Source: Escherichia coli (GTDB lineage Bacteria > Pseudomonadota > Gammaproteobacteria > Enterobacterales > Enterobacteriaceae). Taken from it: 64,000 bases of DNA. Within the stretch, counting starts at the first letter, position 1; each line of letters begins with the position of its first letter. Made by a program: the position numbers and the translations under genes. The stretch lies in NCBI RefSeq assembly GCF_003334255.1, contig NZ_QOWU01000019.1. One strand, written 5' to 3'. The notes below the pieces were generated by a model, which was given only the letters and a program-made list of their open reading frames with translations, ran no database searches and was not told where the DNA came from. This document shows, piece by piece, positions 1 to 9,423 of this stretch.

Positions 1-270
1 ATGCTTCCATCGGAAACGATGATCTGGCAGCCTGAGTTCACAGATAAAACACTCTCCAGGAAACCCGGGGCGGTTCAAGCTCATTTAAACTATCTGGTCT
101 GTTTCCTCCGGTTCTACAAAAATAGATAGGGGTGCACCTACGTTACCAATACTGGCATCATGGCTACATACGGCGGTCAGTTTACGCTTACTCACCATTC
201 TTTACTTTTTTATAAGCGTCAATAGGTTTGGGATATGACTTTTTCAAGAAGCCAAACTGTTTGGAGTAAG

Positions 271-3296: not shown

Positions 3297-4853
3297 TCAG
3301 GCCATGAACAGGTGGTAGACAAGGCCTACTTTCAGTCCAAGAATAACAATATAAGCAAAGCAGTACTTCAGTGTTCCTGACATGATTACGCTGCCCTGAC
3401 CATCCATACGGGTGGCTGAAACAGCGATAGCAATACTCTGAGGAGAAATCATTTTGCCGCCTGTTGCGCCAGATGTATTTGCGGCAGCCAGCCAGAGCGG
3501 GTCCACATGCAATTTTTCAGCCGCAGTGGTCTGCAATTTACCGAACAGAATGTTGGAGTTTGTGTCACTGCCTGTAACAAATGTACCAAGAGCGCCAATA
3601 ACCGGAGCAATGAAGAGGTAGGCTCCACCAGTGAGATCCACAAGGCTTTGTGCCAGAGTGCCAATTAACCCACAAACATCCATTACCGTTGCCATGGCAA
3701 CAATCGCAGAAATGGCAATAATGGAGTTTTTGAGCTGTTTTACCGTACTGATAAATACGTTTAACAGACATGACAGGGATGCTTTTTGTATCAAGCCGCC
3801 AATAACACTGGCAATGATAATCAGAACACCGGGGGTTGCGATCCATTCAATCTTCATCGACAGATTGCTGCCGTTACTCAGAGAGAAACTGAGTGACGAG
3901 GCAATCTGAGACACCGCACTTTTTATCGTCGGGAACAGTGGAGAGCAAAGCAGAATGAACAGAAAAATCAGGATGTAGATTGAGCACGCACGTAACAACG
4001 CCCCACGAGAGTATGAAAGTGCGCTGGCGCTATCTGCTGAAGTATCAATAAGAAATTCAGGTTCTGTTTTTTCTTTACGGTTTTTTGCCATAAAGACTAT
4101 AACGATCAGACTGACAAGACTTCCCGCGAAAGCCGGGAGTTCTGCACCAAGATTAACAGCCACCAGATACTGAGGTATCAATGTGCTGACACCGCACATC
4201 AGGGTAATTAATCCTACGCCTCGTATAGCCTTCATCCCTCCACCGATAATCGCGACGATGACGAAGGGGAGCAGAATGTTGAACAGTGCCAGCTGAAGAA
4301 TAATCGTCCCACTGAGTGTGGTTACAGGCAAATTAACTTGTTCAGCAAGTACAGAGACAGGTATACCGACTGCTCCAAATGCTGTAGGGACTGTATTAGC
4401 AACCAGTGACGCAATTGCTGCTTTTAGTGGGTTAAAGCCCAGTGCAATCAGTATACCAATGGGGATTGCTACAGCTGTACCGTAACCGGCTGCCGCCTCA
4501 AGAAATCCGCCAAAACACCATGAGATAAGAAGTACCTGGATACGCTTGTCATCACTAACGCTCGCCAGAACATTTCTCAGAATATCCATGCTTTTTGTCG
4601 CATTCATCAGGTTATAGCTGTAAATGGCAGCAAGGATAACAATCACAATTGGCCACAAACCTTTGATTGTGCCGTATACCACAGCAGATCCCATATCCAT
4701 AACTGGCGTCTGCCAGAAAACACCCCCAAGGATTAGCGTGATCAGGAGAGTGCTAAGCACGGCATAATGTATGGGCATTTTGACTTTCAGAATCAAAATG
4801 ATCATCGCCAGAAGCGGTGTAAGTCCCAGTAAAAAAAGCAGGTAATCGTGCAT
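3297..4853 (-). CDS. L-lactate permease family (LctP) transporter
   Basis: 518 aa polytopic membrane protein with LctP-family character; directly upstream of and co-oriented with ykgE (44 nt gap). Confidence 0.8.
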   Translation of the reverse strand: MHDYLLFLLGLTPLLAMIILILKVKMPIHYAVLSTLLITLILGGVFWQTPVMDMGSAVVYGTIKGLWPIVIVILAAIYSYNLMNATKSMDILRNVLASVSDDKRIQVLLISWCFGGFLEAAAGYGTAVAIPIGILIALGFNPLKAAIASLVANTVPTAFGAVGIPVSVLAEQVNLPVTTLSGTIILQLALFNILLPFVIVAIIGGGMKAIRGVGLITLMCGVSTLIPQYLVAVNLGAELPAFAGSLVSLIVIVFMAKNRKEKTEPEFLIDTSADSASALSYSRGALLRACSIYILIFLFILLCSPLFPTIKSAVSQIASSLSFSLSNGSNLSMKIEWIATPGVLIIIASVIGGLIQKASLSCLLNVFISTVKQLKNSIIAISAIVAMATVMDVCGLIGTLAQSLVDLTGGAYLFIAPVIGALGTFVTGSDTNSNILFGKLQTTAAEKLHVDPLWLAAANTSGATGGKMISPQSIAIAVSATRMDGQGSVIMSGTLKYCFAYIVILGLKVGLVYHLFMA

Positions 4854-5761
4854 GTCATTTCCTCAAACGAAAACAAAGTCAGCATCATTACTGTGGATAT
4901 TGATAGTCTCCACACCCTGTCGGACGAGAGCGTTTAGTTATCAGGGGGAGAATGAGTATCGCCTCCAAAATTGGGATGTACTTATAAAGTATTTTTTAGT
5001 TTAAAAAATATAGCTGAATCGTTTCATTGTTATCTTCCATGAATAAATGTTATGGAATAATACTTTTTGGGTATTTTTTGTTTATGCTTGTAACACTTGT
5101 GTGCTATCCCGATATAACCTTAAGACTGGAGTTGCAACTGGAGCTCGTCGAAAATCAACGCCCAAATCCTCGACAAATGGAGAAAGAGAATGAGCAATAT
5201 CACCAGGAATAGTTTAGTTGTAGCAGGCGTTCTGGCTTATGGCAGGGAATGTTGCGTTGGCATCTGATGTGCCTACTGAAGTGACTCTAATAGAAAAACA
5301 AACGCTGGTACGTAACAACGGTGCAGAGGTTCAGTCAGAGCAGGACACTGACTGTCGTCTGAGAGGAAGTGGATAAAGCCGGAGCAAGAGAGCCAAATCA
5401 TGATCGATTCGAATGCCAAACTATGATCGATTCAGATGCCATTTTGCAATTAATTTAAAGTTTTATAAAAAACATGACAAAAAATATGTTATATAGTTGT
5501 ATATAAAGTATTATTATCTGAACAGGTTATTATATATTAAATGGAACAGAAGATTATTAATTACTTATCCAGTAATAGCCCTGCAAAATTAGGCGTTTTA
5601 TTGAATGATTTAAATATAACAAAGGAGGTGCATTACTCCGCAACATTAATTTTAGAAGAATTATACACCAGAGAAATGTTGGTGTAATTCTCTTGTGTGA
5701 TAATGTTATACAGAATATGCAAATGTAGTTTACATTTGTCCTGTCTATTCTTATTTGTAAG

Positions 5762-5990
5762 CGTTAACCGAGTGCCGCATTGACGCTTATTTATTAGTGA
5801 GTACTACGTTCCATGGCGAGAGTTCGTCAACACGGTTGGAAGGCCATTCCAGTAGTACGCCCAGGATATGGCGCAAATACGCTTCCGGGTCGATACTGTT
5901 CAGTCGGCAGGTGCCAATCAGCCCGTACAGTAGCGCTCCACGCTCTCCACTGTGATCGTTGCCGAAGAACACGTAGATGATATGACCTTT
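5762..5990 (-). mobile_element. IS66-family element 3' remnant (transposase C-terminal fragment plus terminal repeat)
   Basis: ORF 5787-5972 encodes the conserved IS66 TnpC C-terminus (…LYGLIGTCRLNSIDPEAYLRHIL…SPWN); terminal sequence tgtaagcg at ~5760-5770; truncated on the other side by the IS110-type insertion. Confidence 0.55.
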
Positions 5991-6032
5991 ATATACTCAC
6001 TATAGCATTGGTGGGATATTCCAGAGGTCATC

Positions 6033-6939
6033 ATGGATTCGGAAAATATTGCAGCTTACGTCGGGCTGGATGTTCATAAAGAAACCTTGGCGATTGCTAC
6101 ACCTGAATGGCTTGGCGAAGTTCGTTATTATGGTACGATTAACAACGAAGTCCTGGCTGTACATCGATTATGTCAGAAATTGCAGGGACCTTACGGAAAC
6201 ATTCTTTCCTGCTATGAAGGTGATCCCTGTAGTTTTGGGCTATATCATCAACTCACAGTGATGAATATAAAATGCCTGGTTATTGCCCCCTTCCCGTATA
6301 CCCAAATCACCGGCAGACAGGATCAAAAATGACCATCGGGATGTAATTTCTCTCGCCAGGTTACTGAGGGATGGTGAGGTTCCCCCAGTCTGGCTCCCTG
6401 AGCTGACTCATGAAGCTATGCGGGATTTAATCAGAGCCCATGCCGCTGCAAAACGTGACACGAACAGACAAACGTTATGCCAGGAAGCACTGAACCGGCA
6501 AACATCGAACCTGGTTAGTTAATCAATCATTTGGTCTGCTATCTCAACAGATTGCTTTCAACATTATTGTCAGAATCTGGAGCAGATTGAAGATCGCATA
6601 CTTCAACTCGATCAGGAAATATCTCGCCTGTTACCTGAGTGATCTCTGTGCAATCTGGTCTGCCAGTTGCAGGCTCTTAAAGGTGTTGGTCAGCTAATCG
6701 CAATAACCCTGGTTGCTGAACTGGGTGATTTTTCTCGATTTTCCAATCCTGAACGGCTCATGGCTTTTCTGGGACTGGTGCCAGGTGAATATTCCAGCGG
6801 AAACAGCATTCGCCCCAGAGGAATAACAAAAGTTGGAAACAGTGAACTGAGACATCTGCTTTACGGATATCAAATAAATTCAGATTATTTAACAGTAAAA
6901 CCCCACTTATGTGATGAATCTCATAAAAAAGCAAAGTGA
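6033..6939 (+). pseudogene. IS110-family transposase, disrupted by frameshifts
   Basis: Three consecutive ORF fragments (6033-6332, 6283-6522, 6667-6939) in different frames; N-terminal VGLDVHKETL motif and C-terminal LKGVGQLIAITLVAELGDFSRF…PGEYSSG motif typical of IS110-family transposases. Confidence 0.65.
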
Positions 6940-7172
6940 AGTAATAATATCCAATTTATCCCTCATTCCTTAAGTAAGCGTACACTGGCCGCGTACACCA
7001 TGGCATAATAATACGTTGTTTTACTGATATTTCCGGCTGTTAAAATCCCCGACGGCCCGGCTGAAGCTGGTGCAGGAAAGCGGGTTAATTGTCACTACGC
7101 GGGATAGCCTGTCTGGCTGGATACAACGTATTGCCACAGATATGCAGCAACTGCGTCAGTCCGGAATGTCAG

Positions 7173-7445
7173 TCATCTCCGGGGATGTTGAGGTCTCAGG
7201 CACACTGACCGGCCCCCCGTGTTGTTTCCGGGTACTGTTTTTGATTTATGCAACAAAGTATCGCAGCGTCGAATATGAGCTATGGCCAGATTTTTGTTAA
7301 TCGTGGTTGTTGCAACATGTAAGGCGAATGACCACACTATTCTGGCACGCTCGTAATCACGCTGAAATTCCGCTTCCTGTGCTGCCGTGAAGAGTTCCGA
7401 CCAGGACATACGGCGAAGTGTATGTCTGTCAGTAATATCCGTCAT
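7173..7445 (-). CDS. Hypothetical small protein (90 aa); has a diverged paralog at 13956-14171
   Basis: ORF overlapping the upstream ORF by 4 nt; a ~75% identical nucleotide segment occurs in inverted orientation at ~13950-14180, and this frame is the better conserved one. Confidence 0.35.
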   Translation of the reverse strand: MTDITDRHTLRRMSWSELFTAAQEAEFQRDYERARIVWSFALHVATTTINKNLAIAHIRRCDTLLHKSKTVPGNNTGGRSVCLRPQHPRR

Positions 7446-7657
7446 GAGCTCTCAGCCTCCTCCTTCGTATTTCCGTCAGAAACACAAACGCCCCGCAGAG
7501 AAAATTCGCCAACATTCTCCTTTTTAATGGCGCGCAATGCATCGCGACAGGCCCGTTCGGTATGAAATGCCTGGCTGTGCACCGCCAGTGTGGGCTGCCG
7601 GGCATCACCGGAAGAGACATTAAAGGGAGATGAAAGCCAGAAAATCAGTAGCCACAT
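7442..7657 (-). CDS. Hypothetical small protein (71 aa) with hydrophobic N-terminus (possible signal peptide)
   Basis: ORF within a tightly packed co-oriented cluster; N-terminal MWLLIFWLSSPF hydrophobic stretch. Confidence 0.3.
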   Translation of the reverse strand: MWLLIFWLSSPFNVSSGDARQPTLAVHSQAFHTERACRDALRAIKKENVGEFSLRGVCVSDGNTKEEAESS

Positions 7658-7660
7658 GCG

Positions 7661-8044
7661 TCACACCTCGTCCTTTTTATGCGGGTATCTGGCCAGAATA
7701 TTGAGCGCCTGTAATGGAGCTTCATGCATTTCACGGATACAACGGGCATCGGTGATGTTTTCCCTGTAATGCGTGGTTTCCAGCATCATATGATGCATAT
7801 GCAGCATCCGGGCCAGGGCTGCGCGGAGTTCTTCAATATGTTGTTCATGGGAATACTGGCGGGGCTGTATCCGGCAGAGAGGGATAACCTCCACATCATC
7901 CGGGTGCGCGCGAAGCCACGCGTCAGTGACTGCAATGTCTTCAGTGTAAAACCATGTGCCGGATGTCCCGTTGGCCAGAAAACGCATTTTCCAGGCTTCT
8001 GGGGTGGCGGTTGTGTTGTTATCTTTCATGGTGCCACCACTCAT
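7661..8044 (-). CDS. Hypothetical protein (127 aa)
   Basis: ORF 3 nt upstream of the next ORF and overlapping the preceding one by 4 nt; no family recognised. Confidence 0.35.
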   Translation of the reverse strand: MSGGTMKDNNTTATPEAWKMRFLANGTSGTWFYTEDIAVTDAWLRAHPDDVEVIPLCRIQPRQYSHEQHIEELRAALARMLHMHHMMLETTHYRENITDARCIREMHEAPLQALNILARYPHKKDEV

Positions 8045-8232
8045 TCAACAGGCTTAATGCTGTCCAGGCGCAGTCTGCTCAGACTGTCGTGGCTGCCACA
8101 GCGGCGTCCTGTACTTTTGCTGTAGCACTCCTGCCCCCTGATACACCATGCCGTTGGCGTTTCGTAGAGGCTGACACGTCGGGTTTTATCTTTACTGGCT
8201 AGAAGCCCGGTGTGAGTTTTTGTCTTTTTCAT
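8041..8232 (-). CDS. Hypothetical small basic protein (63 aa)
   Basis: ORF overlapping the downstream ORF start by 4 nt (operon-like coupling). Confidence 0.25.
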   Translation of the reverse strand: MKKTKTHTGLLASKDKTRRVSLYETPTAWCIRGQECYSKSTGRRCGSHDSLSRLRLDSIKPVE

Positions 8233-8319
8233 CGGTGGGGTACAAACGCAGAAATTTTGTTGTCATCAGTTTTTGCCTGCAGAGGCCTGAAAAGACAGCG
8301 TTTTCAGGCCCTGTTCAGG

Positions 8320-8562
8320 TTAGTGAATATTCTTGCCTGGCCTTTCGGCAATATCAATCCCCTGAAGTTGCATGGATATCCCATGCCCATTGAGCATCTG
8401 GCTGTCCATGGAATGGATACCGCATGTCATCATCAGGTTGTAACAAAGCGTACTCAGCATGGCGAGTGCCTCTTCTGAGGATTTACAATGTGTGTTCATA
8501 AGGGCCAGAAACTGCTCAACAACATCCGGGTTAATGCTGGTACTGTGTATTTCATCCTTCAT
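8320..8562 (-). CDS. Hypothetical small protein (80 aa); possibly a YmgA/AriR-like small regulatory protein
   Basis: Start trimmed to the ATG at 8562, which has an AAGGA RBS 4-8 nt upstream; weak resemblance of the C-terminal end (…GKNIH) to the YmgA family; family assignment is a guess. Confidence 0.3.
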   Translation of the reverse strand: MKDEIHSTSINPDVVEQFLALMNTHCKSSEEALAMLSTLCYNLMMTCGIHSMDSQMLNGHGISMQLQGIDIAERPGKNIH

Positions 8563-8679
8563 GATGTGTCCTTGTTTTTTATTATTTTGCATTTCAGAAA
8601 ATAACACGATGCATGTAACCCAGAAAACCGATATGTGCACGCGTAGTCACTTTCTGGCAGATTCCGGTCTCTGAAACAA

Positions 8680-9240
8680 AATACGAGGTGGCATGAAGCG
8701 GATTGTGGCGGACAGGGAAAGTGATTTGATTCCGGGGAAGGCGCTGTGCAGCAGTCTTATCCGGCAGTTTAAAGGGGTGGACGGAGACCAATGAGGCACT
8801 GGAGCAGATTCAGTGCAGAGGTGACCTGCTTTATCAAACTTAATTGTGACAAAATGGCGATTGAGAAGGTGCAATTGACTTATCCGGATTCGGTCGTGGC
8901 GAGGTGGTGACCCTGCATTCTGCTAACCGGGTTATGAGCCAGGAGTCAGCGATAGACAAAGGGACTTATCTGACCGGGCCCCCGGAAAAATGGCGGGAGA
9001 GAATGATACCTTCCTGCTGACGAGACCGGACTTTGAGATGACGAGCGATAGTGCGGCAGTGATGTACAGCCTGATCGGTAGCTGCAAAACTTAACGGAAT
9101 CGAGCCGGAAACGTGGCTACGCCACGTGATCAGTGTAATCAACACCTGGCCTGCCAACCGCATGAAAGAGTTGTTGCCCTGGAACGTCACTCTCTCTGTA
9201 AACTAATTTTTACCCCACGTCCTTCACGGTGCGCTTACAC
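8680..9240 (+). mobile_element. IS66-family element 3' remnant (frameshifted transposase C-terminus plus terminal repeat)
   Basis: Plus-strand translation across ~8950-9210 gives the IS66 TnpC C-terminal motif (…MYSLIGSCK…NTWPANRMKELLPWN) broken by stops; terminal gcgcttaca at ~9230-9240; inverted relative to the remnant at 5762-5990. Confidence 0.5.
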
Positions 9241-9423
9241 TCTGGACAAGTATGTAAATGATAAGTTAAAAATAATCCGTGCATTTCCTGTGACGATATT
9301 AGTTGTTGGTAACGAAATCTCATTAGCGGATCGGAAATGCACTTAACCTAATACGTTGCCACTGTTCCGCCAGGAGTTGCAGTGGCAACGTATTCTACCG
9401 TCAGTGATAGCGTTTTGTTATTA

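What the first reader, a model, noticed from the sequence alone, without database searches (positions are those of the whole stretch)
5762..9240. Nested IS wreckage: two inverted IS66-family 3' remnants and a frameshifted IS110-family transposase
An IS66 C-terminal fragment with its terminal repeat (minus strand, 5762-5990) is immediately followed by an IS110-type transposase broken into three frames, and a second IS66 C-terminal remnant lies on the plus strand at ~8680-9240. The inverted IS66 ends bracket the small-ORF cluster, suggesting repeated insertion and deletion or an inversion. These are likely the recombination substrates that built this island.
Basis: partly seen in the sequence, partly recalled or inferred. 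Interest (0 to 1): 0.3.

Follow-up and report, generated by a model that had tools for sequence, protein, structure and literature searches.

The report
Dead insertion-sequence scraps beside iha gene
This stretch of an E. coli virulence island is a patchwork of dead mobile-element fragments (two unrelated IS66 ends, a broken IS110-type element, a slice of IncI1 plasmid and a decayed gene) already annotated as such in public genomes, so it is ordinary, although one junction preserves a site-specific insertion of one insertion sequence into another.

Summary
The window is E. coli, from a haemolysin/iha pathogenicity island (99.9% to ST69-type chromosomes). The core observation holds. An IS66-family 3' end with its terminal repeat lies at 5757-5971 (-). 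An IS110-family pseudogene lies at 5972-6865 (+). A second IS66 3' end lies on the + strand, but only at 9045-9238, not 8680-9240. RefSeq already annotates all three.

- The IS66|IS110 junction is not a random break. It is the standard insertion site of ISEc45-like IS110 elements inside IS66 tnpC, seen at about 56 of 60 sampled ISEc45-like left ends.
- The "small-ORF cluster" (about 7000-8720) is a 1.7-kb piece of IncI1 plasmid backbone, 94.5% identical.
- 8707-9056 is a decayed DUF2235 gene, not IS66.
- A solo IS66-type left repeat sits at 6974-6999.

The two IS66 ends are only 57% identical, come from different subgroups (ISEc23-like and pO145-type) and have no flanking duplication. They are therefore not inversion partners or a composite element. 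The one recombination substrate I could demonstrate is the IncI1 segment: plasmid pE2022-9 shows a single crossover at about 7360. Verdict: real, ordinary, already known; low interest.

The parts
5757..5971 (-). IS66-family (ISEc23-like) 3' end. It holds the last ~62 codons of tnpC (stop at 5787-5789) plus the right terminal inverted repeat, which ends at 5757 (+ strand reads GTAAGCGTTAACCGAGTGCCG...).
   Evidence: 88% nt to ISEc23 positions 2318-2532. Blastx 83% aa to ISEc23 TnpC 472-537. NCBIfam transpos_IS66 E=2.8e-6. PGAP: 'transposase domain-containing protein, missing N-terminus'.
5972..6865 (+). ISEc45-like IS110-family (IS1111-group architecture) remnant. It holds the left end (about 60 nt, with the subterminal repeat ATGACCTTT) and codons 1-292 of 378. 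Defects: -3 bp at the RBS, -6 bp in frame, +1 in a C run near 6290, -38 bp, -1 bp, TGG>TGA, and truncation at 6865. The right end, where a bridge RNA would lie, is absent.
   Evidence: 87.8% nt to ISEc45. Alignment with the listed defects. Three ORF pieces hit NCBIfam transpos_IS110 at model positions 1-87, 77-140 and 223-288. Same left junction as intact ISEc45 copies in IS66 tnpC.
6866..6973 (.). 108-bp AT-rich sequence of unassigned origin.
   Evidence: Found only in this iha-island context: 693 genomes, all >=99% identical. No similarity to ISEc45, IS66 or IncI1 loci.
6974..6999 (+). Probable solo IS66-type left terminal repeat (GTAAGCGTACACTGGCCGCGTACACC) that directly abuts the IncI1-derived DNA.
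   Evidence: After the GTAAGCG heptamer, 10 of 12 bases match the ISEc23 left repeat. This rests on my own rough chance estimate, so I treat it as probable rather than certain.
7000..8720 (.). Fragment of IncI1 plasmid backbone (the region between the nuc/HTH gene and pndA). It holds the 3' part of the HTH gene (+, about 7000-7250) and five intact small ORFs on the minus strand: 7173-7445 (weak ANR-like; legacy name 'neurotensin receptor R8'), 7442-7657, 7661-8029, 8041-8232 and 8320-8562.
   Evidence: 94.5% nt identity over 1,738 bp to pHUSEC41-1 and many other mostly conjugative plasmids. No Pfam hits. PHROG families of unknown function. ANR E=1.6e-5, below the curated cutoff. Names.
8707..9056 (+). 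Decayed remnant of a DUF2235-domain gene (aa ~140-236 and 318-353 of a 563-aa protein), with stops, frameshifts and an internal deletion of about 243 bp.
   Evidence: 78% nt over 311 bp (E=1e-68) and 81% over 64 bp to the DUF2235 gene of pSTEC2018_166-a. Blastx E=6e-12.
9045..9238 (+). IS66-family (pO145-type) 3' end: the last ~52 codons of tnpC with a +1 frameshift near 9084, plus the right terminal repeat ending ...CACGGTGCGCTTAC at 9238. It is joined to the DUF2235 remnant through an imperfect microhomology of about 12 bp.
   Evidence: 96.9% nt to the IS66 of pO145-13514. Pfam DDE_Tnp_IS66_C E=1.2e-15. Junction sequences. The same module sits beside iha in CFT073 and O157:H7.

Best explanation
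The interval is a non-functional mosaic of seven pieces in a known E. coli pathogenicity island, downstream of iha.

What the sequence shows:
1. An ISEc23-like IS66 copy on the minus strand was hit by an ISEc45-like IS110-family element at that element's habitual target inside tnpC (target ...GAAGAACATAAAG|TTTTTCTTTCC...).
2. A later deletion removed the 3' quarter of the IS110 element, including the right end, together with the rest of the IS66. Point mutations then broke the reading frame.
3. Further right come a 108-bp orphan, a solo IS66-type left repeat, 1.7 kb of IncI1 plasmid backbone with five small intact ORFs, a decayed DUF2235 gene, and the last 194 bp of a different, pO145-type IS66.
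4. The DUF2235|IS66 scar is joined at a microhomology of about 12 bp. It is linked to iha in UPEC and O157:H7 islands alike.

What is inferred:
- The order of events.
- That ISEc45-like targeting of IS66 is RNA-guided. ISEc45 has IS1111-group architecture, in which the bridge RNA is encoded in the right end.
- That nothing here can still transpose.
For: - Identity and context.
- IS66 remnant 1.
- IS110 remnant and its defects.
- Shared junction with intact ISEc45 copies. UPEC957C and PMV-1 carry the identical transposase WP_000555401.1 inside IS66 hosts that differ by more than 10%. In an even sample of 926 records, about 56 of 60 ISEc45-like left ends continue into the same IS66 flank. A diverged paralogous junction occurs in ST131.
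- IncI1 origin.
- DUF2235 remnant and microhomology junction.
- IS66 remnant 2 limits.
- Conservation of the scar beside iha in CFT073 and O157:H7.
- ISEc45 architecture (short left end, right end of about 247 nt, 9-bp subterminal repeats). This matches the IS1111-group description in PMC11208160.
Against: - The order and mechanism of the deletions is inferred. No intermediate genomes were found.
- No empty site was found for either IS66.
- The 108-bp piece is unassigned.
- The solo IS66 repeat rests on 26 bp only.
- The bridge RNA of ISEc45 was not demonstrated. Rfam finds nothing. The right-end fold gives only z=-2.3. The single 7-mer match to the target is at chance level.
- Many ISEc45/IS66 junctions could be inherited copies rather than independent insertions, so the 56/60 figure overstates the number of events.
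- The DUF2235 remnant is 78% identical to its plasmid relative while the adjoining IS66 piece is 97%. A shared ancestry of the two arrangements is therefore uncertain.
Confidence: 0.85

Rival explanations
1. The two inverted IS66 3' ends are the relics of an inversion or of repeated insertion and deletion between related IS66 copies, and they served as the recombination substrates that assembled the island.
For: The two remnants are inverted with their terminal repeats facing outward. The island is rich in IS66-family pieces: ISEc8, ISEc43 and ISEc23-like scraps at 138-191 and 5346-5387, and a tnpA fragment near 16 kb.
Against: - The remnants are 57% identical and belong to different subgroups.
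- There are no flanking 8-bp duplications.
- Remnant 2 with its DUF2235 scar is an old iha-linked module also present in O157:H7, where remnant 1 is absent.
- The variant breakpoints seen in other genomes lie elsewhere.
Confidence: 0.08
2. 6974-9238 is a non-autonomous IS66-derived cassette: a left repeat, passenger DNA, then the last 194 bp with the right repeat. It transposed here as a unit, using an IS66 transposase supplied in trans.
For: An IS66-type left repeat at 6974 and a right repeat at 9238 are correctly oriented and 2,265 bp apart, close to the IS66 length seen here (ISEc23 = 2,532 bp).
Against: - No 8-bp target duplication (TTCCTTAA vs ACTCTGGA).
- The left repeat resembles ISEc23, while the right end is pO145-type.
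- The unit is never seen outside the iha context in 5,426 genomes.
- O157:H7 and CFT073 carry only right-hand parts of it.
Confidence: 0.04
3. The IS66|IS110 junction is a chance truncation. A deletion happened to fuse two unrelated remnants.
For: Both elements are truncated, and the locus has suffered several deletions.
Against: The same junction, to the base, flanks intact ISEc45 copies. In those cases the rest of IS66 tnpC resumes on the other side. The junction recurs at nearly all sampled ISEc45-like left ends.
Confidence: 0.03

Closest known systems
ISEc23 (IS66 family) and an unnamed pO145-type IS66 element
   Same: Remnant 1 is 88% identical to the last 215 bp of ISEc23, including the GTAAGCG... 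repeat. Remnant 2 is 97% identical to the last 194 bp of the IS66 on pO145-13514.
   Different: Each is under 10% of a full element. There is no tnpA, no tnpB, no catalytic part of tnpC and no second end. At 88%, remnant 1 is a diverged relative rather than ISEc23 itself.
ISEc45 (IS110 family, IS1111-group architecture)
   Same: 87.8% nt identity over 894 bp. Same left end, same subterminal repeat and same insertion site in IS66 tnpC.
   Different: It is a pseudogene with three frameshifting indels, a nonsense codon and the last 86 codons missing. The right end of about 250 nt is gone. No intact copy of this diverged lineage was seen in the E. coli complete genomes.
IS4321/IS5075, IS1111-group elements that insert into the terminal repeats of Tn21-family transposons (Partridge & Hall 2003, cited in PMC11208160)
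   Same: In both cases an IS1111-group element has another mobile element as its specific target.
   Different: Here the target lies inside the IS66 transposase gene, not in a terminal repeat. This comparison is from the literature and my own knowledge, not tested here.
The iha-flanking region of PAI-CFT073 and the O157:H7 tellurite-resistance/adherence island
   Same: 8823-12003 is 99.9-100% identical in CFT073, and 8847 onward is 98.9% identical in O157:H7. Both include the DUF2235|IS66 scar.
   Different: CFT073 has an ISEc10 insertion at 8823-8827 and a different left boundary at 7114. In O157:H7 the ter operon is fused at 8847. Neither carries the IS66::IS110 junction at this locus.
IncI1 plasmid backbone between trbA/nuc and pndA (for example pHUSEC41-1)
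   Same: 94.5% identity over 1.74 kb with the same small ORFs in the same order.
   Different: Only a fragment is present, now chromosomal. The HTH gene is cut at its 5' side and pndA is absent.

Membership tests
IS66 family | Homology to the TnpC DDE transposase | tested here: met
   Only the C-terminal tail is present. Remnant 1: NCBIfam NF033517 E=2.8e-6 (positions 348-384 of 387) and 83% aa to ISEc23 TnpC. Remnant 2: Pfam DDE_Tnp_IS66_C E=1.2e-15.
IS66 family | Terminal inverted repeat beginning 5'-GTAAGCG | tested here: met
   5757 (+ strand GTAAGCGTTAACCG...) and 9238 (...GGTGCGCTTAC). Both align with the ends of intact ISEc23 and pO145-type elements. A further solo repeat lies at 6974.
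IS66 family | tnpA-tnpB-tnpC gene set and two ends (complete element) | tested here: not met
   Only 215 bp and 194 bp remain. There is no tnpA or tnpB in 5400-9500. These are derivatives of the family, not elements.
IS66 family | 8-bp target-site duplication | tested here: not met
   Flanks are tcttattt / actctgga for 5757..9238 and TTCCTTAA / ACTCTGGA for 6974..9238. For each remnant alone the test is impossible, because the second end is missing.
IS110 family (IS1111 group) | DEDD/RuvC-like N-terminal domain and C-terminal Tnp domain of the recombinase | tested here: met
   NCBIfam NF033542 hits at model positions 1-87, 77-140 and 223-288 of 343. 72-83% aa to ISEc45 residues 1-292. The last 86 residues are absent.
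IS110 family (IS1111 group) | Intact recombinase ORF | tested here: not met
   Three frameshifting indels, one nonsense codon and a 3' truncation. PGAP flags it as a pseudogene.
IS110 family (IS1111 group) | Sequence-specific insertion site | tested here: met
   The left junction is identical to that of intact ISEc45 copies inside IS66 tnpC. About 56 of 60 sampled left ends share the flank.
IS110 family (IS1111 group) | Bridge/seek RNA encoded in the long right end | tested here: not met
   The right end is deleted in the window. For intact ISEc45 the right end is about 247 nt, with modest fold support (z=-2.3) and no Rfam match. Guide-target pairing was not established.
IncI1 plasmid backbone | Collinear nucleotide identity to the IncI1 transfer-region backbone | tested here: met
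   94.5% over 1,738 bp to pHUSEC41-1 (IncI1/B/O, MOBP, MPF_I) and many other mostly conjugative plasmids.
ANR (AraC negative regulator) family | Score above the curated NCBIfam cutoff | tested here: not met
   ORF 7173-7445 scores 24.6 bits against a cutoff of 32 for NF033650. No Pfam hit. It resembles the family only.

The most novel reading that the evidence does not exclude
ISEc45-family IS110 elements are dedicated, probably bridge-RNA-guided, parasites of IS66-family elements. They insert at one conserved site in the 3' part of tnpC and so split the IS66 transposase gene. The 5971/5972 junction in this window would be a fossil of such an event. I found no description of this specificity in the searchable literature.
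Probability: 0.5. Interest if true: 0.35.

Novelty: already known. Interest (0 to 1): 0.14.

Why it matters
Mostly it does not. The locus is a well-sampled scar region of the iha/haemolysin islands of extraintestinal E. coli, and nothing in it appears able to move or to act.

Three points have modest value:
- **Annotation.** The corrected map separates an IS66 fragment from a DUF2235 pseudogene and recognises IncI1 plasmid DNA inside a chromosomal island.
- **Island-plasmid exchange.** The shared IncI1 segment is a demonstrated crossover point. Through it, island DNA next to the toxin gene sat has moved onto a conjugative IncI1 plasmid (pE2022-9).
- **A natural target preference.** The recurrent ISEc45-in-IS66 junction is a natural example of an IS110-family element programmed against another insertion sequence. 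It could be used to read out the guide rules of an IS1111-group bridge RNA.

Tried and rejected
- **Rfam** on 4800-9700 and on an intact ISEc45 copy: no hits.
- **Repeat finder:** did not link the two IS66 ends, because they are too diverged.
- **IS66 homology upstream of 9045:** I tested three frames against NCBIfam, a stitched translation against NCBIfam and Pfam, blastx with four TnpC sequences, and global and local DNA alignment with shuffles. All were negative. I had myself first read 'AGENDTFLL...' as a decayed IS66 GRKN motif. It is DUF2235 sequence.
- **Target-site duplications** for 5757/9238, 6974/9238 and 5757/16280: none found.
- **Empty site for IS66 remnant 1:** none found. 5451-5756 exists only in this configuration.
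- **Phage origin of the small ORFs:** no DNA match in phages, and only PHROG families of unknown function.
- **Pfam on the five small ORFs:** nothing.
- **Guide-target complementarity in the ISEc45 right end:** one 7-mer, at chance level.
- **Origin of the 108-bp piece at 6866-6973:** not found.
- **Literature:** no paper on ISEc45 targeting IS66 or on this junction.
Full report
**Source and context**

The window is Escherichia coli. Positions 5400-9500 match 81 complete genomes over at least 80% of their length, the best at 99.9% (ST69 and other human isolates). In a RefSeq genome collinear with the window, the interval lies in a pathogenicity island that runs:
- hlyCABD;
- ISEc8 interrupted by IS100;
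- a lactate-utilisation module (lutABC, L-lactate permease);
- the interval under study;
- iha on the minus strand (window 9424-11514);
- an iron ABC transporter and an integrase next to ulaE.

PGAP already annotates three pseudogenes here:
- a partial "transposase domain-containing protein" at window 5787-5975 (-);
- a frameshifted, truncated IS110-family pseudogene at 6033-6864 (+);
- a second partial transposase-domain pseudogene at 9056-9206 (+).

It also annotates five hypothetical proteins between the last two.

**Checking the observation**

IS66 remnant 1 spans 5757-5971 on the minus strand. It is 88% identical to the last 215 bp of ISEc23. It translates to 83% identity with TnpC residues 472-537. 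It ends in the family's GTAAGCG... terminal repeat at 5757.

From 5972 to 6865 the sequence is 87.8% identical to ISEc45, an IS110-family element. The three ORF pieces hit the NCBIfam IS110 model at positions 1-87, 77-140 and 223-288.

A base-by-base alignment shows the following differences from ISEc45:
- a 3-bp loss at the ribosome-binding site;
- a 6-bp in-frame loss;
- a +1 insertion in a C run;
- a 38-bp deletion;
- a 1-bp deletion;
- a TGG>TGA change;
- truncation after codon 292 of 378.

"Frameshifted IS110-family transposase" is therefore correct.

The second IS66 remnant is real but shorter than claimed. Homology to an intact element (the IS66 of pO145-13514, 96.9%) covers only 9045-9238, with a +1 frameshift near 9084 and the terminal repeat ending at 9238. 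Pfam finds only the 39-residue IS66 C-terminal domain.

Upstream of 9045 nothing relates the sequence to IS66. I tried frame translations, a stitched translation, blastx with four TnpC proteins, and global or local DNA alignment against shuffles.

**The IS66|IS110 junction**

The junction is not a random break. Intact ISEc45 copies in other genomes sit in exactly this place.

In UPEC957C, a 215-bp IS66 3' end is followed by ISEc45 (as a tandem dimer) and then by the remainder of tnpC, tnpB and tnpA. In PMV-1 the same ISEc45 protein (WP_000555401.1) lies in a different IS66 host, whose flanks are only 81-88% identical to ISEc23. The uninterrupted target reads ...GCCAAAGAACATAAAG|TTTTTCTTTCCGAG....

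I used a query of 30 bp of IS66 flank plus 200 bp of IS110 left end. It found 926 records. In an even sample of 60 of these, about 56 alignments ran into the IS66 flank. Only two began at the IS boundary.

ST131 carries a paralogous copy of the same truncated junction, 87% identical.

ISEc45 has the following architecture:
- a left end of about 60 nt;
- a right end of about 247 nt;
- 9-bp subterminal repeats (ATGACCTTT / AAAGGTCAT).

This is the IS1111-group architecture, in which the bridge RNA is predicted in the right end (PMC11208160). That right end is missing from the window.

I could not show the RNA itself:
- Rfam has no match.
- The fold is only modestly better than shuffles (z=-2.3).
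- The single 7-mer match to the target is at chance level.

RNA guidance is therefore an inference from family knowledge.

**Between the two IS66 ends**

- **6866-6973** is a 108-bp AT-rich piece. It occurs only in this island context (693 genomes, all >=99% identical).
- **6974-6999** reads GTAAGCGTACACTGGCCGCGTACACC. This looks like a solo IS66 left repeat: 10 of the 12 bases after the heptamer match ISEc23.
- **About 7000-8720** is 94.5% identical over 1,738 bp to IncI1 plasmid backbone, the region between the nuc/HTH genes and pndA. It matches pHUSEC41-1 and many other mostly conjugative plasmids.

The "small-ORF cluster" is therefore captured plasmid DNA. It comprises the 3' part of an HTH gene and five intact ORFs. 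None has a Pfam family. Three hit PHROG families of unknown function. ORF 7173-7445 resembles ANR regulators but scores below the curated cutoff, and it carries the legacy name "neurotensin receptor R8".

- **8707-9056** is a decayed DUF2235-domain gene. It is 78% identical over 311 bp and 81% over 64 bp to the gene on pSTEC2018_166-a, with blastx E=6e-12. It covers residues ~140-236 and 318-353 and has stops, frameshifts and an internal deletion.

The DUF2235 remnant meets the IS66 fragment at an imperfect microhomology of about 12 bp. On that plasmid, DUF2235, DUF2931 and a 507-bp piece of the same IS66 3' end lie in the same order. The window's arrangement may therefore derive from a similar one by a deletion of about 2.3 kb. 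The unequal divergence (78% against 97%) leaves this open.

- The two IS66 ends are 57% identical over 196 aligned bases, and each clusters with a different element. Homologous inversion between them is not credible.
- No 8-bp duplication flanks 5757..9238 or 6974..9238.
- The DUF2235|IS66 scar is an old iha-linked module. It is 100% identical in CFT073 and 98.9% in O157:H7, where the ter operon is fused at 8847 and the annotated TerF C-terminus is read from DUF2235-derived DNA.

Variants of the locus break at the following positions, none at an IS66 end:
- 4575|6523, a deletion that joins the lactate permease gene to the IS110 remnant;
- 7114;
- 8823-8827, an ISEc10 insertion with a 5-bp duplication;
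- 8847.

The one recombination event I could document used the IncI1 segment. Plasmid pE2022-9 is an IncI1-type conjugative plasmid carrying sat. It is island-type at all 71 informative sites up to about 7359 and IncI1-type at all 68 sites from 7360 on. This is a single clean crossover.

**Likely history (inferred)**

1. An ISEc23-like IS66 was disrupted by a site-specific ISEc45-like insertion.
2. Deletion removed the IS110 right part and the rest of the IS66.
3. Separately, IncI1 DNA became joined to the older DUF2235|IS66|iha module. A solo IS66 repeat marks its left junction.
4. Point mutations accumulated in the IS110 remnant.

Nothing in the interval retains the parts needed for transposition.

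**Verdict**

It is wrong on the extent of the second remnant. Its mechanistic inferences are unsupported. The locus is ordinary and already annotated. The recurrent ISEc45-into-IS66 targeting was not found in the searchable literature and is the only mildly novel by-product.

Noticed in passing
window 138-191 (-) and 5346-5387 (-): Two further ISEc23-like scraps, both about 88% identical to ISEc23: the left terminal repeat (element positions 1-54) and a 42-bp tnpA piece (positions 363-404). Together with remnant 1 they bracket the lutABC/lactate-permease module with ISEc23-like pieces in the same orientation. This hints at a former composite arrangement.
   Followed up: partly
window 5392-5450: A sequence of about 57 bp containing a 23-bp tandem repeat (GCCAAATCATGATCGATTCGAAT / GCCAAACTATGATCGATTCAGAT). 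It occurs in more than 1,300 E. coli genomes, usually beside IS elements of various families. In ST131 it directly abuts an IS66 right repeat (L002 5246-5304). Its nature is unknown.
   Followed up: partly
L004 4961-7941 (E. coli UPEC957C): ISEc45 is present as a perfect tandem dimer: two 1,491-bp units, 100% identical, each including about 40 bp of IS66 flank, inside one IS66 tnpC.
   Followed up: partly
L010 (plasmid pE2022-9, NZ_OR345929.1), equivalent to window ~6523-8720: An IncI1-type conjugative plasmid carries sat and island DNA. A single crossover at about window 7360 lies inside the shared IncI1-derived segment, so virulence-island DNA moved onto a conjugative plasmid by homologous recombination.
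   Followed up: yes
L013 3678-4064 (O157:H7) vs window 8847-8910: The annotated 128-aa 'TerD family protein' (TerF) of O157:H7 ends in ...DKMAIEKVQLTYLDLVVARW. This tail is read from the DUF2235-remnant DNA past the fusion point, so its C-terminus is a fusion artefact.
   Followed up: partly
window 14076-14183: A stretch about 71% identical (opposite strand) to 7239-7346, which lies within the ANR-like small ORF. It is possibly a paralogue a few kb beyond iha.
   Followed up: no
window 15956-16280: Another IS66-family left end (…GGGGCGCTTAC at 16280) with a decayed tnpA fragment on the minus strand. Its repeat type differs from both remnants in the finding.
   Followed up: partly
window 9350-9394: A perfect 15-nt inverted repeat (AATACGTTGCCACTG / CAGTGGCAACGTATT, 15-nt loop) lies just downstream of the iha stop codon. 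It is probably the iha terminator.
   Followed up: no
whole window; integrase at about window 24,500-25,700: ARAGORN finds no tRNA gene anywhere in the window. The island's tyrosine recombinase sits directly beside ulaE, so the island does not appear to use a tRNA attachment site at this end.
   Followed up: no
window 7173-7445 (-): This 90-aa ORF carries the legacy database name 'neurotensin receptor R8' in many records. That is clearly a propagated mis-annotation. Its only family resemblance is a sub-threshold ANR match.
   Followed up: partly
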